Shown: positions 2,052 through 15,722 of the stretch, piece by piece
How positions within the stretch are numbered: position 1 is the first letter of the stretch
How the letters are laid out: each line of letters starts with the position of its first letter
Source of the DNA: a virus
Lineage: Duplodnaviria > Heunggongvirae > Uroviricota > Caudoviricetes
IMG/VR virus record: IMGVR_UViG_2602041549_000013
Coordinates: 1-15,722 of that record
Reading direction: 5' to 3' (one strand)
Length of the DNA: 15,722 nucleotides
Made by a program: the position numbers and the translations under genes
Notes under the pieces: generated by a model
Told to the model about the DNA's origin: nothing
Seen by the model: the letters and a program-made list of their open reading frames with translations, nothing else
The model's database searches: none

Positions 2052-3818
2052 ATGAACACCACACTGACACCCGCAGATCTCGATCCCCGTCGGCAGGCCA
2101 TGCTGCTGTACTTTCAGGGATACCGCGTAGCCCGCATTGCTGAAATGCTGGGCGAGAAAGTTGCAACCGTTCACAGCTGGAAAAAACGCGACAAGTGGGG
2201 TGACTATGGGCCGCTGGATCAGATGCAGCTCACCACCGCCGCACGCTACTGCCAGCTCATCATGAAGGAGCATAAAGAAGGGAAAGATTTCAAAGAGATT
2301 GACCTGCTGGCGCGCCAGTCTGAGCGCCACGCGCGGATCGGCAAGTTTAACAATGGCGGCAACGAAGCCGACTTAAACCCTAACGTCGCCAACCGCAACA
2401 AAGGCCCACGCCGTCAGCCTGAAAAGAATGTTTTCACCGATGAACAGATTGAGAAGCTGGAAGAAATTTTCCATTCCTCCATGTTCAACTACCAGCGCCA
2501 CTGGTGGGAAGCCGGAAAAACCAACCGCATCCGCAACCTGCTGAAGTCACGCCAGATCGGCGCGACCTTCTATTTTGCCCGTGAAGCCCTGATTGACGCC
2601 CTGCTTACCGGACGTAACCAGATTTTCCTTTCTGCCAGTAAGGCACAGGCCCACGTCTTCAAACAGTACATCATCGACTTTGCCAAAGAAGTGGAGGTGG
2701 AGCTGAAAGGCGATCCGATGGTGCTTCCCAACGGGGCCACACTGTATTTCCTCGGCACCAATGCCCGCACTGCCCAGAGTTATCACGGCAACCTGTATCT
2801 GGATGAATATTTCTGGATACCGAAATTCCAGGAGCTGCGCAAAGTGGCTTCCGGTATGGCTATTCACAAAAAATGGCGACAAACCTATTTTTCCACGCCA
2901 TCCAGCCTGACACACAGTGCTTATCCGTTCTGGTCCGGTGCGCTGTTCAACCGTGGGCGCAACAAAGCCGATAAGGTGGACATCGACCTGTCCCACAGCA
3001 ATCTGGCCCCCGGCCTGCTGTGCGCAGACGGGCAATACCGCCAGATAGTCACCGTGGAAGATGCAGTGCGCGGCGGATGTAGCCTTTTCGACCTCGATCA
3101 GTTGCGCATGGAGTACAGCCCGGACGAATACCAGAACCTGCTGATGTGCGAGTTTGTGGACGATCTCGCGTCCGTGTTCCCGCTCAGCGAGCTGCAGGCA
3201 TGCATGGTGGACAGTTGGGAAGTCTGGACCGACTTTCATGCTCTGGCCCTGCGCCCGTTTGGCTGGCGCGAAGTGTGGATCGGTTATGACCCGGCAAAAG
3301 GTACGCAGAACGGCGACAGCGCCGGATGCGTGGTGGTGGCACCGCCAGCCGTGCCGGGCGGTAAGTTTCGCATTCTTGAGCGTCACCAGTGGCGCGGGAT
3401 GGACTTCCGCGCCCAGGCTGACGCAATCAAAAAACTGACCGAGCAGTACAACGTGACCTACATCGGCATCGACTCAACCGGCGTTGGTCACGGGGTTTAC
3501 GAGAACGTGAAAGCGTTCTTTCCTGCCGTCCGGGAGTTTGTCTACAACCCCAACGTTAAAAACGCCCTGGTTCTCAAGGCCTACGACATTATCAGCCACC
3601 GCCGTCTGGAGTTTGACGCCGGATATACCGACATTGCGCAGTCATTTATGGCAATCCGTCGCGCCACCACCGCCAGTGGCAACCGCCCGACCTATGAAGC
3701 CAGCCGCAGCGAAGAAGCCAGCCACGCCGATCTGGCATGGGCAACGATGCACGCACTGTTTAACGAACCGCTGCAGGGCGAATCCGCCAATACCAGCAAT
3801 ATTGTGGAGATTTTTTGA
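2052..3818 (+). CDS. P: terminase large (ATPase) subunit (P2 gpP-like), 588 aa
   Basis: Long ORF divergent from O; size and N-terminal sequence consistent with P2 gpP; its stop overlaps the start of the portal gene. Confidence 0.85.
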   Translation: MNTTLTPADLDPRRQAMLLYFQGYRVARIAEMLGEKVATVHSWKKRDKWGDYGPLDQMQLTTAARYCQLIMKEHKEGKDFKEIDLLARQSERHARIGKFNNGGNEADLNPNVANRNKGPRRQPEKNVFTDEQIEKLEEIFHSSMFNYQRHWWEAGKTNRIRNLLKSRQIGATFYFAREALIDALLTGRNQIFLSASKAQAHVFKQYIIDFAKEVEVELKGDPMVLPNGATLYFLGTNARTAQSYHGNLYLDEYFWIPKFQELRKVASGMAIHKKWRQTYFSTPSSLTHSAYPFWSGALFNRGRNKADKVDIDLSHSNLAPGLLCADGQYRQIVTVEDAVRGGCSLFDLDQLRMEYSPDEYQNLLMCEFVDDLASVFPLSELQACMVDSWEVWTDFHALALRPFGWREVWIGYDPAKGTQNGDSAGCVVVAPPAVPGGKFRILERHQWRGMDFRAQADAIKKLTEQYNVTYIGIDSTGVGHGVYENVKAFFPAVREFVYNPNVKNALVLKAYDIISHRRLEFDAGYTDIAQSFMAIRRATTASGNRPTYEASRSEEASHADLAWATMHALFNEPLQGESANTSNIVEIF

Positions 3819-4855
3819 TGGGAAAGAGTAAGAAGAACCGAGCTGCGGCGACGAAACAGATCCAGCTTAAAAGTCAAACTACAGCCGAAGCATTCAGCTT
3901 CGGCGATCCCGTTCCTGTTCTGGACCGCCGTGAACTGCTGGACTATGTGGAATGCGTACAGATGGACCGTTGGTATGAGCCGCCCGTCAGCTTTGACGGA
4001 CTGGCGCGCACCTTCCGCGCCGCCGTGCATCACAGTTCCCCGATTGCAGTAAAGTGCAACATTCTGACCAGTACCTATATCCCTCATCCGCTGCTCAGCC
4101 AGCAGGCTTTTTCGCGTTTTGTGCAGGACTATCTGGTATTTGGTAACGCCTACCTGGAGAAACGCACGAACCGATTCGGTGAAGTTATCGCCCTTGAGCC
4201 TGCCCTGGCAAAATACACCCGACGTGGATTAGACCTGGATACCTACTGGTTTGTGCAATACGGCATGACAACGCAACCGTATCAGTTCACGAAAGGCAGC
4301 ATTTTTCACCTGATGGAACCGGATATCAACCAGGAGATCTACGGCCTGCCCGGTTATCTTTCTGCCATTCCGTCAGCCCTGCTCAACGAGTCCGCCACGC
4401 TGTTCCGTCGAAAGTATTACATTAACGGCAGTCATGCAGGCTTCATCATGTACATGACCGACGCCGCGCAGAACCAGGAGGATGTAAACAACCTCCGTAA
4501 CGCGATGAAAAGCGCCAAAGGACCAGGTAACTTCCGCAATCTGTTTATGTACTCGCCTAACGGCAAAAAGGACGGACTTCAGATCATCCCATTGTCAGAA
4601 GTCGCGGCGAAGGATGAGTTTCTGAATATCAAAAATGTCAGCCGCGATGACATGATGGCAGCGCACCGTGTGCCACCGCAAATGATGGGGATTATGCCGA
4701 ATAATATTGGGGGGTTTGGGGATGTGGAGAAGGCAAGCCGTGTATTCGTCCGAAATGAGCTAATGCCACTACAAAAGCGATTACAGGAGATGAATGATTG
4801 GCTTGGCAAGGAGGCGATACGGTTTGATACCTACTCGCTAGATATAGCCCCATAA
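3818..4855 (+). CDS. Q: portal (capsid completion) protein (P2 gpQ-like), 345 aa from ATG 3818
   Basis: ATG at 3818 overlaps the P stop TGA (ATGA coupling); the ORF track starts 3 nt earlier at a TTG. Size and position match P2 gpQ. Confidence 0.85.
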   Translation: MGKSKKNRAAATKQIQLKSQTTAEAFSFGDPVPVLDRRELLDYVECVQMDRWYEPPVSFDGLARTFRAAVHHSSPIAVKCNILTSTYIPHPLLSQQAFSRFVQDYLVFGNAYLEKRTNRFGEVIALEPALAKYTRRGLDLDTYWFVQYGMTTQPYQFTKGSIFHLMEPDINQEIYGLPGYLSAIPSALLNESATLFRRKYYINGSHAGFIMYMTDAAQNQEDVNNLRNAMKSAKGPGNFRNLFMYSPNGKKDGLQIIPLSEVAAKDEFLNIKNVSRDDMMAAHRVPPQMMGIMPNNIGGFGDVEKASRVFVRNELMPLQKRLQEMNDWLGKEAIRFDTYSLDIAP

Positions 4856-4889: not shown

Positions 4890-5630
4890 TTACTCAATAG
4901 GTTCAAACTCATCTTGAGGAATCAGCGTCGATTGACAGGCTTGGCTTAGTACCCCTGATAATTTACATAATAACCGATAGTTATGAGGAGCATCATCGCT
5001 AATCTTTTCGACCGTTAAAGTGATTGATTTTGGATCATCCAATAACATCTTCTTGATGTCATTACTTAAATACCTAGGGCAGTAACCAACGATTTCAGCT
5101 GGTTTATCTGCACGAACGACAACAGCATCCCCATCGTATTCATTTTGAAGATCCAAGCAAAGACGCAAAATTTGCCCCGGTTTCAATTCAGATACACGAG
5201 CATTAGCTAAGCTATTCAAGTAACCAAGTCCATGTAAGAAGAAAAAATGCTCAAAGTTACCATCAGAATCAAAATCAATTTTTTTGAAAATCTGCAGCTG
5301 ATCAGTGCTTCGTAAGCCTCCCGAGCGAGCAAGAATATCGATAGGATTTACCTTATCTTCTTCAAATCCAAGCCATTTAATGAAACTCGGATACTCTGGA
5401 CGTCTCGGTGATAAAAGGCGATTTTTAAAAAGAGGAAACAATTCTTCCGATACATAAGTTTCACGAACATCACTCATGCCGCTAAACTTTGTAAATTTAG
5501 AAGATTTAAGAGCACCTTTGGTATACCTGAAAACATACCCCGATTTGCGCTCTTGCAAGTTACCAACAACATGCCAGTCTCTGGTATCTGGTGCCTGCCA
5601 TGCGACGTAAACGGAGTTTGTATTAGTCAT
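4890..5630 (-). CDS. kinase partner protein, 246 aa: N-terminal HipA-N/HipS-like region (approx. aa 1-110) fused to a HIRAN-like domain (approx. aa 125-215)
   Basis: Start ATG overlaps the kinase stop (ATGA at 5627-5630). N-terminal VVGNL...YVFRY...LFPLFKNRLLSPRRPE resembles the HipA N-subdomain-1 / HipS pattern; C-terminal LGYL...LKPGQILRLCLDLQNEYDGDAVVV...VGYCPRYLS resembles the HIRAN pattern. Domain calls are from motif memory, not a search. Confidence 0.5.
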   Translation of the reverse strand: MTNTNSVYVAWQAPDTRDWHVVGNLQERKSGYVFRYTKGALKSSKFTKFSGMSDVRETYVSEELFPLFKNRLLSPRRPEYPSFIKWLGFEEDKVNPIDILARSGGLRSTDQLQIFKKIDFDSDGNFEHFFFLHGLGYLNSLANARVSELKPGQILRLCLDLQNEYDGDAVVVRADKPAEIVGYCPRYLSNDIKKMLLDDPKSITLTVEKISDDAPHNYRLLCKLSGVLSQACQSTLIPQDEFEPIE

Positions 5631-6541
5631 TCTAGTAACCTTCTGCGATTTTCCATTACCATTAACGTTGCAAATCTACGTGCACTGTCGGATATACACG
5701 ATGAAGGCACTTGGTTAAACACATCTGTAATGGAATCTTCTGTTAAAACGCTCAACTTACCTAACCAATGGTCGCGAGCGGCAACTCTCCCTTCAACTGC
5801 ATGTTGAAATGCTTCAACAGTCAGCAAGGGCTTTTTATCAGTTTTTGCTTTGAATAGCTCAGAGCGAGCTTTTCTTACAAAACATGGGATTTGTCGATTT
5901 TTATCTTTAGTATTAAGCCGTTCGCTACGCTCATCATCTAACATCTCCCTTCCTAAACTAGCGGCATGATCGTATGTTGGACACAAAAACTGCTCACCAG
6001 TTTCATTGTTAAGCATGATTGCCCAATTTTCATGGTGGCGATCTTGATTACTCACAAGTGCATCGAGCATCAAATATCCACAAAATACATCTGCTGCATT
6101 TAGCCCGGTTAGATCATATACACTCGGAGGAGGCTTGATAGATTCCCTATCTAAACAACCCAAGACCCTTGTGACAGTGTGTTCTCTGACCCTTACCGGC
6201 TTTTCCCCGGCTTGTAAAGGCCCAGGATAATCGAATGTCGAACTGTGAAGCACTTCATTTCCCATTACCATCCGGAAACCAGATGGAATGATATTCTGAG
6301 TCACCACACCGAATCGACCATTGTATCGCGCCAAATCATAGCTAGCATGTGGAATGTTAAGCAAATGACATAACTCAGCAGCACACTTTTCAGACCAATG
6401 CTCGCCAGTACCTGGCCTAGAGTACTTAAACAACTGCAAATTTACAGTGTCATCGGAGAAATAGAACCAAAACTTCTCTTTGGTTCCTAACTGTTCAAGA
6501 TCGTTAGCTACGGGGCTAAGCTCTACCAATTGGTATGGCAT
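5627..6541 (-). CDS. short HipA-family (HipT-like) Ser/Thr protein kinase, 304 aa
   Basis: Gly-rich loop GTKEK near the N-terminus (aa 19-23); catalytic motif D167-R-H-H-E-N172 and downstream LCPTYD191 match the HipA catalytic and Mg-binding aspartate motifs. Region is visibly AT-richer than the phage backbone. Confidence 0.75.
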   Translation of the reverse strand: MPYQLVELSPVANDLEQLGTKEKFWFYFSDDTVNLQLFKYSRPGTGEHWSEKCAAELCHLLNIPHASYDLARYNGRFGVVTQNIIPSGFRMVMGNEVLHSSTFDYPGPLQAGEKPVRVREHTVTRVLGCLDRESIKPPPSVYDLTGLNAADVFCGYLMLDALVSNQDRHHENWAIMLNNETGEQFLCPTYDHAASLGREMLDDERSERLNTKDKNRQIPCFVRKARSELFKAKTDKKPLLTVEAFQHAVEGRVAARDHWLGKLSVLTEDSITDVFNQVPSSCISDSARRFATLMVMENRRRLLE

Positions 6542-6761: not shown

Positions 6762-6781
6762 GCCCGCCAGTTCTGGCGGGC
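6762..6781 (-). terminator. perfect 9-bp stem hairpin next to the cos candidate; possible - strand terminator or part of the cos/terminase region
   Basis: GCCCGCCAG-TT-CTGGCGGGC; on the - strand it is followed by TTTTGCG. Confidence 0.35.
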
Positions 6782-7054
6782 CTTAGCAAAAACGATCCTC
6801 AAACGATCATGCAATCTCATGCAGCATAGACATGCACAGACGAGTAAAGCGAATCGGACTTTACGCAAGGTGAACTCCTCAGCGGGTATAATCAGTATGT
6901 CGGAAAATCTCTAAAAATAAATAATTCGGTTAACAGGTATGCTTACAAAAGCATATATTTGATTAAAAATCATGTAAGGGGGAGGATCTCAAACTGAATC
7001 GCCACGGGTTTTGCAAATTTCGATAGTCTCTCTAACGTTTCGGCTGAGGTCAAA

Positions 7055-7480
7055 ATGAAAAGCTTTTACGTATTAATTTTAATTCTGGTTGCAAGCTTTG
7101 TTAGCGTCCCAGTTCAGGCGGTAACAGCTAAAAACTATGAGAAAGGAACTAAAGCTCAACAGAAATCAATAGCTTACCTTTCATGTGCATTCTATGGCAG
7201 TAGCACACAATTAGATCCTAGCTACACGGGGCAAGTACCTACAGCCGATATCAAGATATTACAGAAAGCAGCTTACCACGCTTACAACGATGCGCTCTCA
7301 TACTTAGGCTATGAGGAACCAGATCACGAACAACGCATAATTGATTATGCTGAATTTGTGGCGTCGCAAGAAGCTGTGTTATGGGATAAGCCGGGAATGA
7401 ATGGAAAGCAGGTAACACTAATTGCTCGTTCTCTCTACAATGAGAGTAACTGTAACTTGTTACTGGACTCAATTAAGTAG
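7055..7480 (+). CDS. secreted protein of unknown function, 141 aa, with a cleavable signal peptide
   Basis: RBS GAGGT upstream of the ATG; N-terminal MKSFYVLILILVASFVSVPVQA with AxA-type cleavage site; two Cys in the mature part; AT-rich gene and upstream region. Confidence 0.55.
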   Translation: MKSFYVLILILVASFVSVPVQAVTAKNYEKGTKAQQKSIAYLSCAFYGSSTQLDPSYTGQVPTADIKILQKAAYHAYNDALSYLGYEEPDHEQRIIDYAEFVASQEAVLWDKPGMNGKQVTLIARSLYNESNCNLLLDSIK

Positions 7481-7639: not shown

Positions 7640-7873
7640 TTAATGCAGCCAGCTGTCGTCTTCCCACACCTTCTGCATAATTTTCATCACTTGTTTTCTT
7701 TCTTCGTCCAGTTGCAGTCCGGTCAGTTCCACACCGTTAGAGCTACCTTTGCGGATGCGAATTACCGTTTTGGGATACAGGGGGCGCAGATTGCGGTAAA
7801 GCTCTGATTCAAGGGCGTCCAGGGTAGACTGGTTAATCTTCTGCTCTTTATCGATCATTATTTCAATGCGCAT
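7640..7873 (-). CDS. DinI-family protein, 77 aa from ATG 7873
   Basis: MRIEIMIDK...LDALESEL...YP...WEDDSW aligns with the E. coli DinI pattern; GAGGTG RBS 6 nt upstream of the ATG; the longer ORF-track start at 7945 is not used. Confidence 0.8.
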   Translation of the reverse strand: MRIEIMIDKEQKINQSTLDALESELYRNLRPLYPKTVIRIRKGSSNGVELTGLQLDEERKQVMKIMQKVWEDDSWLH

Positions 7874-7883
7874 AAAAGTCACC

Positions 7884-8072
7884 TCAACTGATGACATCCA
7901 TTGAGCGGTTGTATTCGTGAGTTCTGATTTTTGCCATGAGTTCATCAGTCAACTCAGAAACCCACTGCAGAGCCAGCCCCTTCTCTTCATCACTACACTC
8001 ACTAGCCGCTACAAGCTTAAGAAAAAAATCAATGCGCTGGAGCTTCAAAGACTCCAAAAAATAGTCCTGCAT
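7884..8072 (-). CDS. small SOS-regulated protein, 62 aa; possible Tum-like antirepressor
   Basis: First gene downstream of the LexA box; AGGAGG RBS before ATG 8072; forms an operon with the DinI-like gene. The 97-aa version from 8177 would contain the LexA box and is rejected. Function is inferred by position only, by analogy with the 186 tum operon as I recall it. Confidence 0.45.
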   Translation of the reverse strand: MQDYFLESLKLQRIDFFLKLVAASECSDEEKGLALQWVSELTDELMAKIRTHEYNRSMDVIS

Positions 8073-8113
8073 CTTTCCTCCTATGACACCACACGCAACA
8101 CTGTATGTATAAC

Positions 8114-8133
8114 CACTGTTTATATTTACAGTA
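8114..8133 (-). promoter_or_regulatory. LexA (SOS) box in the promoter of the small-ORF/DinI operon
   Basis: CACTGTTTATATTTACAGTA has a perfect CTGT-N8-ACAG core and matches 17 of 20 positions of the consensus TACTGTATATATATACAGTA; an extra CTGT half-site at 8101-8104; a TTTACA -35-like hexamer lies at 8151-8156 on the - strand. Confidence 0.7.
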
Positions 8134-8225
8134 TATAATAATCTTACTGATGTAAAACGTTTTTTTACATTCATCACCCTGATATACCTGGTATTATTAA
8201 GAGCACGAATTGTTAACCCGCGTAA

Positions 8226-10640
8226 TTAATACAGGTTCCGCCACTGATCATCTTCCTGCAAACGCTGGTTCCGATAGAAGATACGCAGGCCTGCTCCTGA
8301 CGGAATACTGCCTCCGCGAAGGAGTAAATCGACCTCTTTCTCGCTGCCATCAAATCCTCTGGACTTCAGCTCATACACGAGCTGCAGTCGCTGATGGTCT
8401 GTAATTCGCTGTTTGTAGTCTTTACGCCGTTTCGGTTTCACCAGGCGTAACCTTGCAGCCAGTTCCCGGCGCTCTTTTTTGCTCATACTGTGCAGGTAAT
8501 CGTGCAACTCCTTGTCATCCATGCGGGTAATGTCCGTTCTGGTATCCCCATCAGCTGATTTGTCTTTCCCTTGTTGGTTCAAATTTTCAGCAAGGGGACA
8601 GTTATTGCCACGAGTCCAAGGGGCGCAAGCGCCCTGGTCGGCTGCCGCCTCCTGAACGTCAACGGCCTTACGAACCATTTTCCACTTCACTGCATGAGTG
8701 CAGATCTTGCCCTCTGCAATGGGTGACCAGATGCCATAAATACGAATACCGTGATCGCCATAGGCGGTTGGCTCTTCGTTGATTTCATAAGCGGTTCTGA
8801 TGAGGTGATATTTGCGGGAAACCAGTACGCCGCCCTGCTTCATGATGTAGGTGGCAAAACAACCAGCATCAGCAGCAGCCAGGATGGCATCAAGGCGCGG
8901 GTTATCCAGTACCGGCGCACCTGCTTTTTTGTCACCCTGTTGCCTTGCCGCCTGACCAGCCAGCAATCGCAGTTCACGGTAAGCCTGACGCCCCGGAATG
9001 CCAAAGAAGCGGAATTGCTGAACACGATGCAGAGACGCCCAGGCATTAACGTATTCAGCGTTATCACGCAGGGATTTACCCGTTTCCTTACTGATCTCGC
9101 CAGCCAGACCACACCCGTCAATATTCTTACTGATATATTTCGCAATGTAGCTTGTCGGCGTTCCTTTGCGCGGGTTTATCAGCTCAGACTTAAAGCGTGG
9201 CCCCGTGTTATTGCCCAGCTCCTCGCGGTCTTCACGGATGGCAAACTTACGCAACAATGCAGTAATGGCGCGGCGGTCTTTTTTACGCATGAAACACAAC
9301 AGGTGCCAGTGAACTGTGCCGTCATGATGCGGCTCAGCCACCCGCACGCCATACCAGCGCAACCCGGCTTTGTGCATAGCCTTACGAAATGCAGCAAACA
9401 TGCCGACCAGATAATCGCTGCTTTGTCTTACTGTCGCGTTGGTCCAGGTCGGGTTTGGCCTGCCGTTATTTAGCGTGGAATGGAAACGTGACGGACAGGT
9501 GATGGTGTAGAAAACGGCGCAGTCACCACGCATTTCCGCGATAAGCTCCAGGCCTTTAACACAGGCCATCATCTCATTGCGGCGATGCGCCGGGTTGCTG
9601 CTGCTGGCGTTTACCACATCCTCCATGTTCAGCGTGTCGCCGTCTTCGTTCACCAGTTCATGAGAACGGAAAAACTCCAGCGACTTACGGCGCTGCTCAC
9701 GTTTATGCATCACGGCTTCATAGCTGACATAGGGAGATGCTTTTTTGCTGACCAGGCAGACAGCACGCAACTGCTCTTCCCGCCATTCGCAACGCATCTT
9801 CCATAATTTCCGATACCACCAGTCGGCGCACAGCATACGCGCCAGCGAACCCGGAATGAGTTCATAGGGCACAGGTTTGCGGCGGTTTCTTTTCCGGCGG
9901 AGTTGCTCAAACGCAGGCGGTATGACATCCAGTCGCAGGGTTTCTGCAGCCACCTTTTCCCATGTCTTGCGGATTTCTTCTGGCTTAACATCATCGGAGG
10001 CGTACAAATCACCACAAGCGGCATCAAGACACATGCTCATATGCGCAGCGACAAGGGTAGACAGGCGTTTCACCTGATCCTGACTCATTTCAGGCAGGAT
10101 CAGCAGACCGTCCAGCCCTTCATGGCTTGCCATAAAACGAAAAGATGCAGATAGCTGGCTGTCGCGTACATGCTCCAGTCGTTCCAGACATGGCTTAATC
10201 GTCTCACGCAAATAGCGGGAATAAGCCTTTGGCCTGCCCAGGCTGCTGAAATATTCAATACGTTGCATCAGCGGCTTGCTGATATGGGAAGGCTGGGCGT
10301 TGACGTCGGCCAGAATGACCATGTCCGGATTAAAACGCTGCTGCTCATGCGCCATCTTTGCCCGGCTAATGAGCTTATCCTGCTCCATTTCGCGTTGGAC
10401 AGGATCACGGGATTCATTAAAGAAATAACGCTCCCAGACCTGATCACTCAGTGCCTCGCGGCGCAACTGTTCCTGCTCGTTATCGGCAGCGTACAGAGTG
10501 ATCAGGTTTGAAAGCGTAGAAACCGGCGCAACTTCCGCCGGGTCCAGATAAGGGTTAATGGCCTTTTTCGGGCTGTTCCATGAGAATGCTGCGGCAGCCT
10601 CGTTAAAGCCGCAGCAGTTGTTCATATCGGCATGACTCAT
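8226..10640 (-). CDS. A: rolling-circle replication initiator / endonuclease (P2 gpA-like), 804 aa
   Basis: HUH-type motif VHWHLL and active-site tyrosine motif YIAKYISK typical of gpA-type Rep proteins; start ATG overlaps the dam stop (ATGA). Confidence 0.85.
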
Positions 10641-11494
10641 GCACGTACTCCGTACACGGCAGAACTATCCACGCCACGCGAATAATCAAATCCCATCCAG
10701 CAGCGCGGCCCGGAAACAGCAATGATTTCTGTTGCTGATTTACCCTCGCCAGCTGCCACACCGATGCTGCGTTTTACCTTGATATAGTGGTGAGTAAAAT
10801 TGCGATACAGCGAACGGATCAGGGATGTGTCACTGTTAGAAACAATGACTGGATGTCCTTCTGATGACCGATGTTCAAGAACGGATGCCAGGTGATACTG
10901 GTCATCTTCAGTGAAACCATCAGTGTGATAGCCGGAAAACGTACCGTCATACGGCGGATCGCAATACACCACATCTCCCGCCTTCAACATCGCCAGCGTT
11001 TCATCAAAGCTGGCGCAGATAAACGTTGCTCGCTGGGCTTTTTCTGCAAATGTGCGAAGTTCTTTTTCAGGGAAATACGGATTTTTATAATTACCGTAGG
11101 GGATGTTGAAATGCCCGCTCTTGTTATAGCGACATAAACCACGGTAACCGTGACGATTAAGATACAGGAAATATACCGCTTTCATGAAATCAGTAATTTC
11201 AGTTGAGCAGTTAAACTCCTGCCTTATGTTGTAATAAGCCACCTCCCTGTTTGCGATCTCAAATAAAACTCTGGCGCGAGATATAAACGATTCACAATCA
11301 GCGGCAACCTTTTTATAGAGGTTGATTAAATCAGGATTAATATCCGCAACCAGATAGCTGGGATAATCCGTTTCCATCATCACAGCACAGGAACCCGCGA
11401 AAGGTTCAACCAGTCGCGGGCCAGCAGGAAGGTATTTTTTCAGTTCTGGCATAATGGCGGTTTTATTTCCCGCCCATTTCAGGATGGTGCTCAT
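10637..11494 (-). CDS. dam: DNA adenine methyltransferase (Dam family, orphan), 285 aa from ATG 11494
   Basis: N-terminal KWAGNK and FAGSCAV motifs and catalytic DPPY motif; ATG 11494 overlaps the upstream zinc-finger gene stop (ATGA) and follows a GGAGGTG RBS; the ORF-track start at 11554 is not used. Confidence 0.8.
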
Positions 11495-11718
11495 ACAGCA
11501 CCTCCGTTGTAATGTTTGCCTTTCAGTTCTGCGATTTCCTGACAGGTAATGCAAAGCTGCACTCCCGGAATGGCGCGGCGTCGTGCTGGCGGAATTGGCG
11601 CTTCACATTCAATGCAAAGTACGCGTGACACGCCCGGTGATTTGGCACGGGCTGCACGGATATGGCGCTGGCGTTCTTCTTCAACGCGCTGCTGTACGAG
11701 ATCCATTGCATCAGCCAT
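11491..11718 (-). CDS. TraR/DksA-family C4 zinc-finger protein, 75 aa
   Basis: Two CxxC pairs (CIECEAPIP ... CITCQ) in a small basic protein; common position in P2-like early operons. Confidence 0.7.
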   Translation of the reverse strand: MADAMDLVQQRVEEERQRHIRAARAKSPGVSRVLCIECEAPIPPARRRAIPGVQLCITCQEIAELKGKHYNGGAV

Positions 11719-11951
11719 TAGTGGATCTCCTGCGCTTCGTTCTGGATTGCTTCAGCAGTCACGCGCAGCAGTTCTGCCGCTTCCACGTGGTTTAGCTGGC
11801 GGGATGAGATATGACACGCCAGGCTATCAAGGCGAGCAGCCATTGCTTCAGCCCTTGCCCGGCGTTCTTCCAGACGAGCCTCTGTCAGTAAAATATTAAG
11901 CCCTGCGTCATCCGGTCCGGTTTTAGTCGTGAGGGTTTCAATATTACGCAT
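11718..11951 (-). CDS. hypothetical early-operon protein, 77 aa from ATG 11951
   Basis: ORF with AGGAGA RBS 7 nt upstream of ATG 11951; stop overlaps the next start by 1 nt. Confidence 0.45.
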   Translation of the reverse strand: MRNIETLTTKTGPDDAGLNILLTEARLEERRARAEAMAARLDSLACHISSRQLNHVEAAELLRVTAEAIQNEAQEIH

Positions 11952-12018
11952 AATCAATTCTCCTGAATTTAGATAAAGGGATGCCCGGCGGGTTTACGCC
12001 ATTAATTTCATTAGTTGG

Positions 12019-12360
12019 TTAATTCGGCATGGTTAGCCGTCTGGGAAATAAGCTCACCACTGCACGAAAATGATTCATTGCTTTAATCAGCTCCCGCTTT
12101 TCGTCAGTGGTCAGCTCATTAATGCTGATGCTATGACGTTCAGCTGGAATTTTTGCCATAAAGAATATGGCAGCCAGTGCCCGTTTATTTTGTTCATTAT
12201 TGATATCCCGTGGATCACGCATATCTTTAATAAACCGCTCAAGCTCTGACTCAATATTCAGGCCAAAAACTTTCGCCCTTAACTCTGCAATGTGATTAAG
12301 TCCATTCAGGCGTTCACCGGGGCTTAATGGAACAGTTGCTGCAGCGCCATTAATTGCCAT
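12019..12360 (-). CDS. hypothetical early-operon protein, 113 aa
   Basis: ORF in the operon with a purine-rich RBS; no recognisable motif. Confidence 0.45.
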   Translation of the reverse strand: MAINGAAATVPLSPGERLNGLNHIAELRAKVFGLNIESELERFIKDMRDPRDINNEQNKRALAAIFFMAKIPAERHSISINELTTDEKRELIKAMNHFRAVVSLFPRRLTMPN

Positions 12361-12382
12361 ACTTCATATCCCCCAAACGCAG

Positions 12383-12607
12383 CTATCGTTCTTTGTTCTT
12401 ACGGTAACGCTCAAGAGGAGATACATTTTTTCGTATCGTCTCTTTAACCTGCTCTCCCCGTAAAAACGTCCCATCCTTTAACGTGAAAAAGTAACTGCCA
12501 TCGCCCGACAATGACGGATAGCAACAGAGCAAATCATCTTCAGGTACTGAATAACTCTCCCCTCTGTAACGAAACTGATAAACCACTTCACTTTCTGCCG
12601 CATACAT
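12383..12607 (-). CDS. hypothetical early-operon protein, 74 aa
   Basis: GGAG RBS about 9 nt upstream of ATG 12607; aromatic-rich, protein-like composition; overlaps the upstream ORF out of frame. Confidence 0.4.
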   Translation of the reverse strand: MYAAESEVVYQFRYRGESYSVPEDDLLCCYPSLSGDGSYFFTLKDGTFLRGEQVKETIRKNVSPLERYRKNKER

Positions 12608-12774
12608 TTGGACTTTCTCCGTTTCCTCGTGGTCAATTCAGACAGCAATTCATCTTGTGAATGACATGGATGCCAGCGTTTTCCATCCTCACCCGTGATC
12701 CAGCCGTGACCGTAGTGCATTGTCGGGCTTTGTTTTACCAGCAGCGATGCAAATGATGGTTCTTTCGTCAGCAT
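12478..12774 (-). CDS. hypothetical early-operon protein, 98 aa from ATG 12774; 3' portion may be an out-of-frame read-through
   Basis: GAGGTG RBS overlapping the cII stop, ATG at 12774; the last ~45 codons overlap the next gene in another frame and are Lys/Arg-rich. Confidence 0.35.
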   Translation of the reverse strand: MLTKEPSFASLLVKQSPTMHYGHGWITGEDGKRWHPCHSQDELLSELTTRKRRKSKCMRQKVKWFISFVTEGRVIQYLKMICSVAIRHCRAMAVTFSR

Positions 12775-12781
12775 AAGCACC

Positions 12782-13291
12782 TCACAGCAAACCGAATGAA
12801 GCACCGAGGCCAGTCACGGTATCAACTGCACTCGCCATCGCAGGATTAGCCTGTAAACGGGCCTGCAATGAAACAGCAGCCAGCGCCATCAGTCGTGTTA
12901 CAGAGTTAATGCTGCTGATAGCATCACGACGACCGGCACTAGTTTTTACATCACCAGATACCGCACCTGCTGCAACACGCCCGATCTCTGCAGTTGCGCT
13001 CATGACGTAATGCGGCAGTTTCTCTTTTGCTACCTCATTAATCGGTACACATGGCAGACAATGAATCTGTGCCAGAAAACCATCTACCAACGTTGAATCT
13101 TCAGTCAGATCGGTAAGCAGCCAGATTTCTGGTGCGGTTAATAAATGAGGTTGAGCTGGGTTCAGCTTGTTCCGCAGAATCTGCACATTCATGCCCGCAC
13201 GTTCTGCCAGTTGCACCAGATTGTGGCGCAGTGCGAATGCACGACAGGCTTCATCAAAATGTGGATGTTTGGAAACTTGGTAATCAAACAT
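12782..13291 (-). CDS. cII: CII-like transcriptional activator (186 type), 169 aa from ATG 13291
   Basis: N-terminal helix-turn-helix ([30 protein letters not shown]); second gene of the lytic operon after apl; length matches 186 CII as I recall it; GGAG RBS before ATG 13291. Confidence 0.65.
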
Positions 13292-13355
13292 GGTTTTCAA
13301 CTCCGAACTTATCGCAAAATCGAACTCAGCGTCTTATTGCGAAAATAGACGTCTA

Positions 13356-13559
13356 TTAAGCAGACAAAGCATCAACAGTCAGAGCAGCCAGGTTAATCAT
13401 TACCTTTTCACGTTTTTTGTCTTTACGAAGACGATGACGAGGTAGTCGGCCATCAGCCAACATGTCGTTAATCGTATCAATAGAAAGGCCAGTCAGTTCG
13501 CTATAACGTTCGATTGTGACATGTGGTGTATTCAGAGTAATTGAAATGTTAGGTGTCAT
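13356..13559 (-). CDS. apl: Apl/Cox-like excisionase / transcriptional regulator, 67 aa
   Basis: First gene of the - strand lytic operon, divergent from cI; small HTH protein with basic C-terminal tail; AAGGA RBS. Confidence 0.6.
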
Positions 13560-13704
13560 AAGGCAACATTCCTTCTAGATATGGCTTGTGGCGAGCCGTT
13601 GTTTGTCGTGATTAGTAGTGAAGGCTCCAAAAGAACACTTCTGGTTCAACTTTAAGATCGCTTTTGGAATCTGTCAACGAATTTTGGATTTCTTTGGAGG
13701 ACTT
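13560..13704. promoter_or_regulatory. lysis-lysogeny switch region between apl and cI (candidate face-to-face pR/pL promoters and operators)
   Basis: Intergenic region between divergent apl and cI; - strand TTGACA (13673-13678) with TAAAGT 18 bp downstream is a candidate lytic promoter; direct TTTTGGA repeats at 13662-13668 and 13683-13689. Confidence 0.35.
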
Positions 13705-14274
13705 GTGGATTTCAATAGCGGCGGTAAGAAAGCCATAGAACGTTTAGTTGAAGCATATGGGTTCGGTACCCGTCAGGCTCTATGTGATCATTTAGGTGTT
13801 TCTAAGAGCACCATGGCAACGCGCTATATGCGTGATATTTTTCCAGCAGATTGGGTAATCCAGTGCGCCCTTGAAACGGGCACCTCGCTTAATTGGCTAA
13901 CAACAGGGCATGGTTCAAAGCAAGCATCAGCAAATACAAATACTATAGAAGTAGAAAAATATTTATTGTCTGATGGAGCATTGCAGAAAGACGGTTTTTA
14001 TATTTTTGATAAGGGATTTCTACCCTCTACGTTTAAAAAACCTTTTGTCATCACAGATAACAATTCTGAATTTATTTGTGATAAAGAATTTGATGATATA
14101 CGTGATGGTAAATGGGTAATAAGTATTGATGGCGAAATAACGATCCGTGACATTACTCGTTTACCCGGTGGAAGAATCTTCGTCGAGGGTGGAAACAGAG
14201 CCTTCGAATGCAAGATAGAAGACATTGAAATAATTGGTAAAATTATAAGTTTAACAGTCAAGTATGTTAAATAG
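13705..14274 (+). CDS. cI: immunity repressor CI (186 type), about 189 aa
   Basis: HTH RQALCDHLGVSKSTMATRY followed by ETGTSLNWLTTGHG, typical of XRE-type phage repressors; divergent from apl/cII and upstream of int. Start is ambiguous: GTG 13705 after GGAGG is preferred over GTG 13618 or TTG 13684. C-terminal half is AT-rich. Confidence 0.7.
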   Translation: MDFNSGGKKAIERLVEAYGFGTRQALCDHLGVSKSTMATRYMRDIFPADWVIQCALETGTSLNWLTTGHGSKQASANTNTIEVEKYLLSDGALQKDGFYIFDKGFLPSTFKKPFVITDNNSEFICDKEFDDIRDGKWVISIDGEITIRDITRLPGGRIFVEGGNRAFECKIEDIEIIGKIISLTVKYVK

Positions 14275-14289
14275 TACCGGGAGGAAACT

Positions 14290-14481
14290 ATGCTTGGTAA
14301 GGTATTTTTTGTGGTTTTGTCATGTTCTTTGTTATTAAACCCACTAACTACCTATGCTAGAAATTATCCCTGCTCAGGGAAAAAGGGAGGTGTTTCTCAC
14401 TGTACCTCAGATGGCAAATTCGTTTGCAATGATGGAACTATTAGTAAATCCAAAAAAATCTGTACTAAAAACTCACGATAA
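14290..14481 (+). CDS. small Cys-rich secreted peptide or lipoprotein, 63 aa, unknown function
   Basis: Strong RBS GGGAGGA; hydrophobic N-terminus with either a signal-peptidase I site (TYA) or a lipobox-like VLSC; four Cys in a roughly 40-aa mature part; AT-rich. Confidence 0.4.
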
Positions 14482-14669
14482 CTTTTGCTTTTATATCTGC
14501 GTCTAAAATAAAAATGAGCCGCAGGTTAACCGCAAAAGTTACATGCTCACATAGCAAAAAGAATAGCCAACTTAATTATGGCTTCAGTGAGATGTATGGT
14601 CGTAGGATTTCATACATTGACACTGGTTATACATACAGTGAAAATGCTCTCTACTGGAGGGCATTTTTT

Positions 14670-15722
14670 ATGGCAGTACGAAAACTCACCACTGGGAAAT
14701 GGCTTTGCGAATGTTACCCCGCCGGACGAAGTGGGCGTCGTGTGCGTAAACAATTCGTCACCAAAGGCGAAGCACTGGCTTTTGAGCGCCACACGATGGA
14801 AGAAACCGAAGCAAAGCCCTGGCTGGGTGAATCAGTGGATCGTCGAACACTGAAAGACGTGGTTGAGCTATGGTTCAAACTACATGGTAAATCTCTGACA
14901 GCTGGGCAGCATGTCTATGACAAATTGCTGTTGATGGTTGACGCTCTGGGCAATCCTCTTGCAACCGATCTCACCTCTAAAATGTTTGCCCACTATCGAG
15001 ATAAACGCCTGACAGGCGAGATCTACTTCAGCGAGAAATGGAAGAAAGGAGCAAGCCCGGTCACCATTAACCTGGAGCAAAGCTATCTAAGTAGTGTTTT
15101 TAGCGAACTATCCCGTCTGGGCGAATGGTCGTATCCGAACCCACTGGAGAACATGCGAAAATTCACCATCGCAGAAAAAGAGATGGCATGGCTTACCCAT
15201 GAGCAGATTGTTGAATTGCTGGCTGATTGCAAACGTCAGGACCCAATTCTGGCACTGGTAGTTAAGATATGCTTAAGCACAGGCGCACGCTGGCGTGAAG
15301 CCGTAAATCTTACCCGCTCACAGGTGACCAAATACCGAATTACCTTTGTCAGAACGAAGGGGAAGAAAAACAGAAGCATCCCTATCAGTAAAGAGCTTTA
15401 CGAAGAGATCATGGCGCTTGATGGGTTCAATTTCTTCACAGACTGCTATTTTCAATTTTTATCCGTGATGGAAAAAACGTCTATCGTGCTCCCTCGCGGT
15501 CAACTCACACACGTTCTGCGCCATACGTTTGCGGCGCACTTCATGATGTCGGGTGGAAACATTCTGGCCTTACAAAAAATTCTCGGACACCACGATATAA
15601 AAATGACTATGCGTTACGCACATCTGGCACCGGATCATCTGGAAACGGCGCTCCGTTTCAATCCTCTGGCAACGCTGCCAAGTGGCGACAAAGTGGCGGC
15701 AGCGGTTGGCATTACCCCGTAA
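14670..15722 (+). CDS. int: tyrosine integrase (P2/186 type), 350 aa from ATG 14670
   Basis: N-terminal MAVRKLTTGKW...GRSGRRVRKQF typical of P2-family integrases; C-terminal R...HxxR...Y catalytic pattern (LRHTFAAH ... MRYAHL); GGAGGG RBS 8 nt upstream of ATG 14670; the ORF-track extension from 14514 is rejected. Confidence 0.85.
   Translation: MAVRKLTTGKWLCECYPAGRSGRRVRKQFVTKGEALAFERHTMEETEAKPWLGESVDRRTLKDVVELWFKLHGKSLTAGQHVYDKLLLMVDALGNPLATDLTSKMFAHYRDKRLTGEIYFSEKWKKGASPVTINLEQSYLSSVFSELSRLGEWSYPNPLENMRKFTIAEKEMAWLTHEQIVELLADCKRQDPILALVVKICLSTGARWREAVNLTRSQVTKYRITFVRTKGKKNRSIPISKELYEEIMALDGFNFFTDCYFQFLSVMEKTSIVLPRGQLTHVLRHTFAAHFMMSGGNILALQKILGHHDIKMTMRYAHLAPDHLETALRFNPLATLPSGDKVAAAVGITP

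What the first reader, a model, noticed from the sequence alone, without database searches (positions are those of the whole stretch)
10637..11494. Orphan Dam-family adenine methyltransferase translationally coupled between the zinc-finger gene and replication gene A
A DPPY-motif methyltransferase with no adjacent restriction endonuclease gene, embedded in the early lytic operon with ATGA overlaps on both sides. In a phage this is most simply an anti-restriction or self-marking function expressed early in infection. It could also modulate GATC-dependent host processes or the phage's own replication origin.
Basis: partly seen in the sequence, partly recalled or inferred. Interest (0 to 1): 0.4.

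Follow-up and report, generated by a model that had tools for sequence, protein, structure and literature searches.

The report
Prophage Dam methylase upstream of replication gene
This is a real but ordinary and already annotated gene: a Dam-type DNA adenine methylase that Fels-2/186-like (P2-family) prophages of enteric bacteria carry just upstream of their replication gene, found in about a quarter of complete E. coli genomes.

Summary
Window 10637-11494 (minus strand) encodes a 285-aa Dam-family (D12 class) N6-adenine methyltransferase with a DPPY motif. It shares ATGA start/stop overlaps with the TraR/DksA zinc-finger gene upstream and replication gene A downstream. No nuclease partner lies nearby.

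The gene is not new. The protein is 100% identical to the annotated methylase of Escherichia phage vB_EcoM-813R9. Near-identical DNA occurs in 1239 of 5426 complete E. coli genomes. Its 90% cluster includes a protein labelled "retron EC67 DNA adenine methylase", a name from a 1990 paper.

It is 47% identical to E. coli Dam and keeps six of seven DNA-recognition residues, so GATC specificity is very likely, though untested here.

The overlap with A belongs to the slot upstream of A rather than to Dam. Other P2-family phages carry a cytosine methylase, a PAPS-reductase-domain gene or a small ORF there, each overlapping A.

The anti-restriction reading is plausible but unproven, because the hosts already have Dam and GATC is not avoided. 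I favour topping up GATC methylation on fast-replicating phage DNA.

One unexpected side result emerged. The early promoter pR, which drives dam, carries a GATC at a fixed position in many heteroimmune relatives, and this co-occurs with phage Dam.

The parts
10637..11494 (-). dam: 285-aa Dam-family (D12/alpha class) N6-adenine DNA methyltransferase, predicted GATC-specific
   Evidence: PF02086 E 2.2e-75. TIGR00571 318 bits. 47% identity to E. coli Dam. phmmer E 3e-73 to PDB 2g1p/4gol Dam chains. 100% identical to the phage vB_EcoM-813R9 methylase.
10949..10960 (-). Codons for the catalytic motif IV, DPPY (residues 179-182). The DNA here itself contains a GATC at 10957-10960.
11501..11505 (-). 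Shine-Dalgarno GGAGG, 6 nt upstream of the dam ATG, inside the end of the zinc-finger gene
   Evidence: read
11491..11718 (-). TraR/DksA-type C4 zinc-finger gene (equivalent to 186 orf80 / P2 orf82). Its TGA stop overlaps the dam ATG (ATGA).
   Evidence: PF01258 and TIGR02419. phrog_54. Same Pfam family as 186 Orf80.
8226..10640 (-). Replication gene A (rolling-circle initiator/endonuclease). Its ATG overlaps the dam TGA (ATGA).
   Evidence: PF05840 E 6.7e-127. 98.8% identical to the Klebsiella phage KP12 replication protein.
10649..10652 (-). GGAG, 8 nt upstream of the A start codon, inside the end of dam
   Evidence: read
13649..13677 (-). Predicted early lytic promoter pR (TTGACA-17-TAAAGT), which would drive apl/cox, cII, fil, DUF5347, DUF2732, zf, dam and A
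   Evidence: The only promoter-like site on the minus strand in 8000-13700. The same scan recovers the annotated pR of phage 186.
13656..13659 (.). GATC in the pR spacer, one base upstream of the -10 hexamer. Its position is conserved in many heteroimmune relatives.
8600..8640 (-). ori-like sequence inside gene A (GGGCGCTTGCGCCCCTTGGACTCGTGGCAATAACTGT), aligned to the annotated 186 origin. It contains no GATC.

Best explanation
The gene encodes a catalytically competent orphan Dam-family m6A methyltransferase that almost certainly targets GATC. It belongs to a Fels-2/186-like (Peduoviridae) prophage.

It is a distal gene of the CI-repressed early lytic operon transcribed from pR. It would therefore be made only during lytic growth or induction, not in the lysogen.

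Ribosomes finishing the zinc-finger gene restart on dam, and ribosomes finishing dam restart on gene A. Dam and the replication initiator would thus appear together.

The most likely job is to supplement the limiting host Dam while the phage genome is amplified by rolling-circle replication. That would keep progeny and virion DNA fully methylated at GATC. Full methylation would have three effects:
- It protects against m6A-sensitive GATC restriction in the next host.
- It avoids the hemimethylated state read by SeqA and MutH.
- It fixes the methylation state of regulatory GATCs such as the one in pR.

Shown here: the identity, the motifs, the gene order, the overlaps and the distribution. Inferred: the GATC specificity (from homology), the expression timing (from operon position), the functional coupling (by analogy with 186 orf84) and the physiological benefit.
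For: Family and motifs.

Recognition residues: their roles in E. coli Dam are taken from PMC4417163. The equivalents of K9, Y119, L122, R124, P134 and Y138 are conserved in the alignment.

Operon position: the gene order matches the 186 early operon. pR is the only minus-strand promoter-like site upstream.

Overlaps. The 186 GenBank note says that 'translation to end of orf84 appears necessary for translation of A protein' for the gene in the same slot.

Silence in lysogens: a prophage-borne D12 Dam homologue in E. coli EC958 was transcriptionally silent (PMC4659465). I did not verify that it is the same gene.

GATC density: slightly higher in Dam-carrying early regions than in Dam-less relatives (3.6 versus 3.0 per kb). 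This is a weak result and is confounded by ancestry.
Against: - No activity, specificity or expression data exist for this exact protein in what I could read.
- One base-contacting residue of E. coli Dam differs (N120 to R), and so does one residue I recall as a phosphate contact (R137 to N).
- Motif I is FAGSC rather than FxGxG.
- The NCBIfam equivalog for housekeeping Dam is not reached (287 bits against a cutoff of 441).
- Many related phages do without Dam (186, P2, Wphi), so the function is dispensable.
- A review-type statement says the role of phage Dam enzymes 'is still not well understood' (PMC7556043).
Confidence: 0.75

Rival explanations
1. Anti-restriction is the primary role. The enzyme exists to protect phage DNA from GATC-cutting, m6A-sensitive restriction enzymes such as the MboI/DpnII type.
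For: It is an orphan methylase made early from a phage operon. Reviews list phage orphan methylases and Dam homologues as anti-restriction tools (PMC12707154). GATC is not counter-selected in the window.
Against: All identified hosts are Dam+ enterobacteria, so incoming phage DNA is already largely protected, and resident m6A-sensitive GATC systems are not known to be common there (my knowledge). No such nuclease is in the window. Dam-less siblings with the same host range are common.
Confidence: 0.3
2. Epigenetic control of the phage's own switch. Dam methylates a conserved GATC in the spacer of pR, the promoter that transcribes dam itself. This changes RNA polymerase or CI binding and so feeds back on early transcription or on the lysis-lysogeny choice of progeny genomes.
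For: The arrangement is TTGACR-N12-GATC-N-TAnnnT.
- It is present in 74 of 79 close Dam+ loci.
- It occurs in 12 of 21 promoter types, which fall into at least 8 groups with only about 30% identity outside the constrained columns.
- In a one-genome-per-species sample, 22/26 Dam+ loci and 7/31 Dam- loci carry it. In the distant subset the counts are 5/8 and 1/25.
- Other GATCs in the same regions do not differ between groups.
Against: - The counts are not phylogenetically independent, and pR and dam are only about 2 kb apart, so linkage could produce the association.
- Dam-less members of the same clade keep the GATC, so host Dam would suffice.
- Some Dam+ phages lack it: ESSI2_ev015 and SopEPhi, which has GATT.
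- The promoter is predicted, not mapped.
- No effect of methylation has been measured.
Confidence: 0.25
3. Host takeover. A burst of Dam during lytic growth hypermethylates the host chromosome. That removes the hemimethylation signals used by MutH and SeqA, disturbing mismatch repair and oriC sequestration to the phage's benefit.
For: The same early operon carries other host-directed genes: a Fil-like cell-division inhibitor, and in 186 Dhr, which inhibits host replication. Dam overproduction is known to disturb repair (my knowledge).
Against: There is no direct evidence. The effect would be slow relative to a lytic cycle.
Confidence: 0.1
4. Lysogenic conversion. The gene is expressed in the lysogen and reprograms host gene expression.
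For: Prophage methylases can change host phenotypes in other systems (title list).
Against: No promoter-like site on the coding strand lies between pR and dam. The gene sits deep in the CI-repressed operon. A prophage Dam homologue in EC958 was silent. A host Dam with the same predicted specificity is already present.
Confidence: 0.05
5. The enzyme is inactive or has a specificity other than GATC.
For: N120R and R137N substitutions, and motif I FAGSC. It scores below the housekeeping-Dam equivalog cutoff. The ST131 paper notes that no recognition site had been determined for close homologues of its prophage Dam.
Against: R124, L122, P134, Y119, K9 and Y138 equivalents and DPPY are intact. The sequence is strongly conserved across thousands of copies. 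The title of the 1990 paper on the Ec67 element attributes 'Dam methylase functions' to it (reference quoted).
Confidence: 0.05

Closest known systems
'Retron Ec67' DNA adenine methylase (Hsu, Inouye & Inouye 1990), which lies in a 186-related prophage (Dodd & Egan 1996). Equivalent genes are annotated in Fels-2-type phages: RE-2010, SopEPhi orf8, Klebsiella KP12 and vB_EcoM-813R9.
   Same: Same 285-aa protein family. A member of the same 90% cluster carries that name, and SopEPhi orf8 is annotated as similar to it. The position is the same: zf, dam, A, with 4-nt overlaps. A K. pneumoniae prophage has the same gene order (PMC7826664).
   Different: Nothing of substance. The window copy is an allele, 100% identical to the 813R9 protein. 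I could not read the 1990 paper, so I know the activity claim only from its title.
E. coli housekeeping Dam (PDB 2G1P, 4GOL)
   Same: 47% identity over 268 residues. Same fold family. DPPY, the SAM-binding D in ADIN, and the DNA-recognition residues K9, Y119, L122, R124, P134 and Y138 are conserved.
   Different: It is phage-borne, sits in a repressed lytic operon and is below the equivalog cutoff. It has N120R and R137N, a 5-residue deletion after DPPY and a 22-aa C-terminal tail.
Other phage Dam enzymes: P1 Dmt/Dam, T2/T4 Dam, HP1 Dam, VT-2/933W Dam
   Same: All are orphan GATC m6A methylases encoded by phages of Dam+ hosts. Their role is generally described as poorly understood (PMC7556043). 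P7/P1 Dam is 35% identical and T4 Dam 25% identical.
   Different: Different lineages and genome positions. P1 uses Dam for pac cleavage (my knowledge). No packaging link is evident here, although three GATCs lie within about 100 bp of the cos-like site.
Phage 186 orf84, the gene in the slot upstream of A
   Same: Same position, a 4-nt overlap with A, and non-essential. Its translation is reported as needed for A translation.
   Different: It is a PAPS-reductase-domain protein, not a methylase. Some genomes carry both Dam and this gene.

Membership tests
Dam family / D12-class (alpha) N6-adenine DNA methyltransferases | Full-length match to the family profile above the curated cutoff | tested here: met
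   PF02086: 254 bits against a cutoff of 22, profile positions 1-253 of 253. TIGR00571: 318 bits against 114.85.
Dam family / D12-class (alpha) N6-adenine DNA methyltransferases | Catalytic motif IV, (D/N)PP(Y/F) | tested here: met
   DPPY at residues 179-182
Dam family / D12-class (alpha) N6-adenine DNA methyltransferases | SAM-binding motif I (FxGxG) and the acidic residue of motif II | tested here: inconclusive
   EPFAGSC (F-A-G-S-C; the last G is replaced by C) at residues 30-36. ADIN is conserved at residue 50. From my memory, T4 Dam also lacks the last G.
GATC-specific Dam enzymes | Residues that read GATC in E. coli Dam: R124 (4th bp), L122 and P134 (3rd bp), Y119 (intercalation), N120, and K9 and Y138 (1st bp) | tested here: met
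   Six of seven are identical in the alignment; N120 is R. Residue roles are from PMC4417163.
GATC-specific Dam enzymes | Demonstrated Gm6ATC methylation | not testable with these tools
   Needs a DpnI/MboI assay or SMRT/nanopore sequencing after expression in a dam-negative host.
Housekeeping Dam orthologue (NF008152 / PRK10904 equivalog) | Score above the equivalog cutoff | tested here: not met
   287 bits against a cutoff of 441. It is a paralogous phage clade, not the chromosomal dam.
Orphan (solitary) methyltransferase | No cognate restriction endonuclease adjacent | tested here: met
   The neighbours are the zf gene and gene A. All operon ORFs are otherwise assigned. The best PADLOC model is oMTase.
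186/Fels-2-type early lytic operon gene | Same strand and order as apl, cII, fil ... zf ... A, downstream of pR and divergent from cI-int | tested here: met
   Window map compared with the annotated 186 region and RE-2010.
Translationally coupled gene pair | Overlapping stop/start codons, plus evidence that upstream translation is needed | tested here: inconclusive
   The overlaps are present and conserved. The functional requirement is documented only for 186 orf84-A, not for dam-A.

The most novel reading that the evidence does not exclude
Dam and the early promoter pR form an epigenetic circuit. The promoter that transcribes dam carries a GATC at a fixed position, one base upstream of the -10 hexamer. 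That position is kept across heteroimmune phages whose operators and -10 hexamers have diverged to random-level similarity, and it co-occurs with carriage of the phage Dam. Methylation by the phage enzyme on newly replicated genomes, or hemimethylation after host replication of the prophage, would then tune early transcription, CI binding or the lysis-lysogeny choice of progeny phage.
Probability: 0.2. Interest if true: 0.55.

Novelty: already known. Interest (0 to 1): 0.15.

Why it matters
The gene itself matters little. It is a routinely annotated accessory gene of a very common prophage family.

Two points are useful:
- The 'translational coupling' is a feature of how gene A is expressed. 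It turns the position upstream of A into a slot that different phages fill with different DNA-modification genes.
- If the conserved promoter GATC proves to be methylation-sensitive, it would give a concrete, testable function for a phage Dam in a Dam+ host. The literature I read still calls that question open.

Tried and rejected
- **GATC avoidance or enrichment in the window.** None was found: 62 observed against 61-76 expected, similar to other palindromes.
- **GATC cluster at the replication origin.** The ori-like sequence was located by alignment to 186, and it has no cluster.
- **Link to the reported Dam dependence of SopEPhi excision.** SopEPhi has GATT, not GATC, at the pR position, so this does not explain it.
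- **Internal promoter for dam.** None was found on the coding strand.
- **A 186 tM1-like terminator early in gene A.** A 9-bp hairpin is present, but it has no U-run and the fold z-score is only -1.5.
- **Antisense ORFs and Rfam families.** Nothing was found.
- **Reading Hsu et al. 1990.** The paper is not held.
- **Locating M.EcoMIV in EC958, to tie the 'silent in lysogen' result to this gene.** My coordinate guess missed the prophage and I did not pursue it.
- **Literature on a pR GATC or on the function of P2-family Dam.** Nothing was found.
Full report
**What is in the sequence**

The window is the early region and part of the head-gene region of a P2-family prophage. Its lytic operon runs on the minus strand.

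ORF listing and family scans give this map:

| Coordinates | Strand | Assignment |
|---|---|---|
| 1-1909 | - | two ORFs not scanned; by position in the P2 gene order, capsid (N) and scaffold (O) |
| 2052-4855 | + | two ORFs not scanned; by comparison with the 813R9 annotation, terminase (P) and portal (Q) |
| 4890-6541 | - | two-gene cargo |
| 7055-7480 | + | phrog_7437 gene |
| 7640-7945 | - | DinI-like gene |
| 7884-8177 | - | small ORF |
| 8226-10640 | - | replication gene A |
| 10637-11494 | - | dam |
| 11491-11718 | - | TraR/DksA zinc-finger gene |
| 11718-11957 | - | DUF2732 |
| 12019-12360 | - | DUF5347 |
| within 12478-12804 | - | Fil-like cell-division inhibitor |
| 12782-13300 | - | CII |
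| 13356-13559 | - | Apl/Cox |
| about 13678-14274 | + | CI (divergent) |
| 14290-14481 | + | small ORF |
| 14514-15722 | + | integrase |

This is the gene order of the phage 186 early operon and of Fels-2-type phages such as RE-2010 and vB_EcoM-813R9.

- The 285-codon ORF is open.
- It matches PF02086 end to end (E 2.2e-75) and TIGR00571 'dam' at 318 bits.
- It contains DPPY at residues 179-182.
- Both ATGA junctions can be read, each with a Shine-Dalgarno sequence inside the upstream gene.
- In relatives of 70% identity or more, the 4-nt overlap is present at the dam start in 126 of 126 loci and at the dam stop in 124 of 126.
- No nuclease is adjacent, and PADLOC's best model is 'orphan methyltransferase'.

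**What the protein is**

It is 47% identical to E. coli Dam, and its best solved relatives are the E. coli Dam structures (E 3e-73).

PMC4417163 gives the residue roles in E. coli Dam:
- R124 reads the fourth base pair.
- L122 and P134 contact the third base pair.
- Y119 intercalates.
- N120 hydrogen-bonds a base.
- K9 and Y138 read the first base pair.

In the alignment all of these are identical here except N120, which is R. R137 is N. Motif I is FAGSC rather than FxGxG.

GATC specificity and activity are therefore very likely but inferred. The score against the housekeeping-Dam equivalog is below its cutoff (287 against 441), so this is a phage paralogue and not a displaced chromosomal dam.

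**It is already known and very common**

- The protein is 100% identical to the annotated methylase of Escherichia phage vB_EcoM-813R9.
- The DNA is at least 95% identical in 34 phage records, mostly from Klebsiella and Escherichia.
- A copy occurs in 1239 of 5426 complete E. coli genomes. It is annotated 'DNA adenine methylase' between 'TraR/DksA family transcriptional regulator' and 'replication endonuclease'.
- The exact sequence was seen on at least 1000 contigs, and its 90% cluster has 4038 members. One member is labelled 'retron EC67 DNA adenine methylase'.
- SopEPhi orf8 is annotated as similar to that protein.
- A Klebsiella prophage with the same gene order is described in PMC7826664, which cites Hsu et al. 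1990 and Dodd & Egan 1996.

**Coupling belongs to the slot, not to Dam**

The gene directly upstream of A differs between phages, but it always overlaps A's start:

| Phage | Gene upstream of A | Overlap with A |
|---|---|---|
| RE-2010 | Dam | 4 nt |
| ESSI2_ev015 | Dam, 48% identical | 4 nt |
| SI7 | C5-cytosine methylase | 8 nt |
| 186 | orf84, PAPS-reductase domain | 4 nt |
| Wphi | gp83 (similar to P2 orf83) | 11 nt |

The 186 record states that translation to the end of orf84 appears necessary for translation of A. It also annotates a terminator early in A that acts when A is not translated.

It reflects how A is expressed, and it makes this position a slot for accessory DNA-modification genes. 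SI7 carries three methylases in the region, and some genomes carry both Dam and the PAPS-reductase gene.

**Expression**

The only promoter-like site on the coding strand between 8000 and 13700 is TTGACA-17-TAAAGT at 13677-13649, upstream of apl/cox. The same scan recovers the annotated pR of 186.

Dam should therefore be made only when CI repression is lifted. A prophage D12 Dam homologue in E. coli EC958 was reported silent in the lysogen (PMC4659465). I did not confirm that it is this gene.

**Function**

Nothing I could read tests the role of this clade. One paper says the function of phage Dam enzymes 'is still not well understood' (PMC7556043).

Points against a simple anti-restriction reading:
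- The hosts are Dam+.
- GATC is not avoided.
- Dam-less siblings are common.

Points for a top-up role:
- P2-family genomes are amplified by rolling-circle replication from the A-dependent origin.

The origin itself shows no GATC cluster. A possible cost is that Dam overproduction, including by P1 Dam, triggers the Retron-Sen2 toxin by methylating the GATC in msDNA.

I therefore favour supplementing host Dam during replication. Protection, avoidance of hemimethylation and promoter marking would be consequences of that. This step is inference.

**An unexpected regularity**

The GATC at 13656-13659 lies in the pR spacer, one base upstream of the -10 hexamer.

- Among 79 close Dam+ loci from IMG/VR, 74 have TTGACR-N12-GATC-N-TAnnnT, although their spacers and -10 hexamers differ.
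- After clustering at 75% identity, 12 of 21 promoter types carry it. Those 12 fall into at least 8 groups whose identity outside the -35, -10 and GATC columns is about 30%. The next most frequent fixed 4-mer occurs 7 times and overlaps it.
- The GATC is not part of the repeated operator half-sites visible in each type.
- In a one-genome-per-species sample found with a CII alignment, 22 of 26 Dam+ loci and 7 of 31 Dam- loci have it. Among loci whose CII is under 75% identical to the window's, the counts are 5 of 8 and 1 of 25.
- Other GATCs in the same regions are equally frequent in both groups.

Caveats:
- The counts are not phylogenetically independent.
- pR and dam are only about 2 kb apart.
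- Dam-less members of the Fels-2-like clade keep the site.
- 186, ESSI2_ev015 and SopEPhi (GATT) lack it.
- The promoter is predicted, not mapped.

I found no report of this in the searches I ran.

**Verdict**

The finding is real, correctly identified and ordinary. It is an already annotated orphan Dam of a very common prophage family. Interest in the finding as given is low. The promoter GATC is the only part worth a follow-up experiment.

Noticed in passing
window 13649-13677 (GATC at 13656-13659); also L001 3850-3880, L002 218-246 and many loci from L008 to L250: The predicted early promoter pR carries a GATC at a fixed position (TTGACR-N12-GATC-N-TAnnnT). It appears in 12 of 21 heteroimmune promoter types that are otherwise unrelated. 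In a species-dereplicated sample it co-occurs with phage Dam (22/26 Dam+ loci against 7/31 Dam- loci). Natural variants GAAC, GATT and GAAT exist.
   Followed up: yes
window 4890-6541 (minus strand): A two-gene cargo matches the PADLOC candidate defence system PDC-M03: a HipA_C-like protein (PDC-M03A, E 3e-122) and a HIRAN-domain protein (PDC-M03B, E 7e-93). It lies between the hairpin after the 3815-4855 gene (portal by position) and the cos-like site. RE-2010 has an AIPR gene and 813R9 a Hypoth_Ymh gene in the corresponding region between gene A and the portal gene. Dodd & Egan's title places retrons Ec67 and Ec86 next to cos.
   Followed up: partly
A terminator-like hairpin lies at about 6762-6789 and three GATC sites lie within about 100 bp. 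I did not check whether methylation matters for packaging.
   Followed up: no
L003 (Salmonella phage SI7) 878-3008 and 6032-6724; L005 (phage 186) 2104-3108; L174, L175, L232: The position directly upstream of gene A is a variable slot holding Dam, a C5-cytosine methylase, a PAPS-reductase-domain gene or a small ORF, and each overlaps A's start. SI7 has three methylase genes around A. Some genomes carry both Dam and the PAPS-reductase gene.
   Followed up: partly
window about 10588-10617 (minus strand): A 9-bp GC-rich hairpin (CUGCUGCGG...CUGCCGCAG) lies about 24 nt into gene A. Phage 186 has a terminator (tM1) early in A that acts when A is not translated. This hairpin has no U-run and the fold z-score for the region is only -1.5.
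   Followed up: no
proteins P0006 and P0009: E. coli records hold 472- and 496-aa proteins that join about 86-90% of this Dam to a Phage_GPD (late control D) domain. These probably come from rearranged or degraded prophages or from gene-calling artefacts.
   Followed up: no
window 2076-2085: Two GATC sites 6 bp apart lie just inside the start of the 2052-3818 gene (terminase by position). They sit next to the divergent gap at 1909-2052, where P2-family phages have late promoters by my recollection.
   Followed up: no
window 10949-10960: The codons for the catalytic DPPY motif (GAT CCG CCG TAT) themselves contain a GATC site.
   Followed up: no
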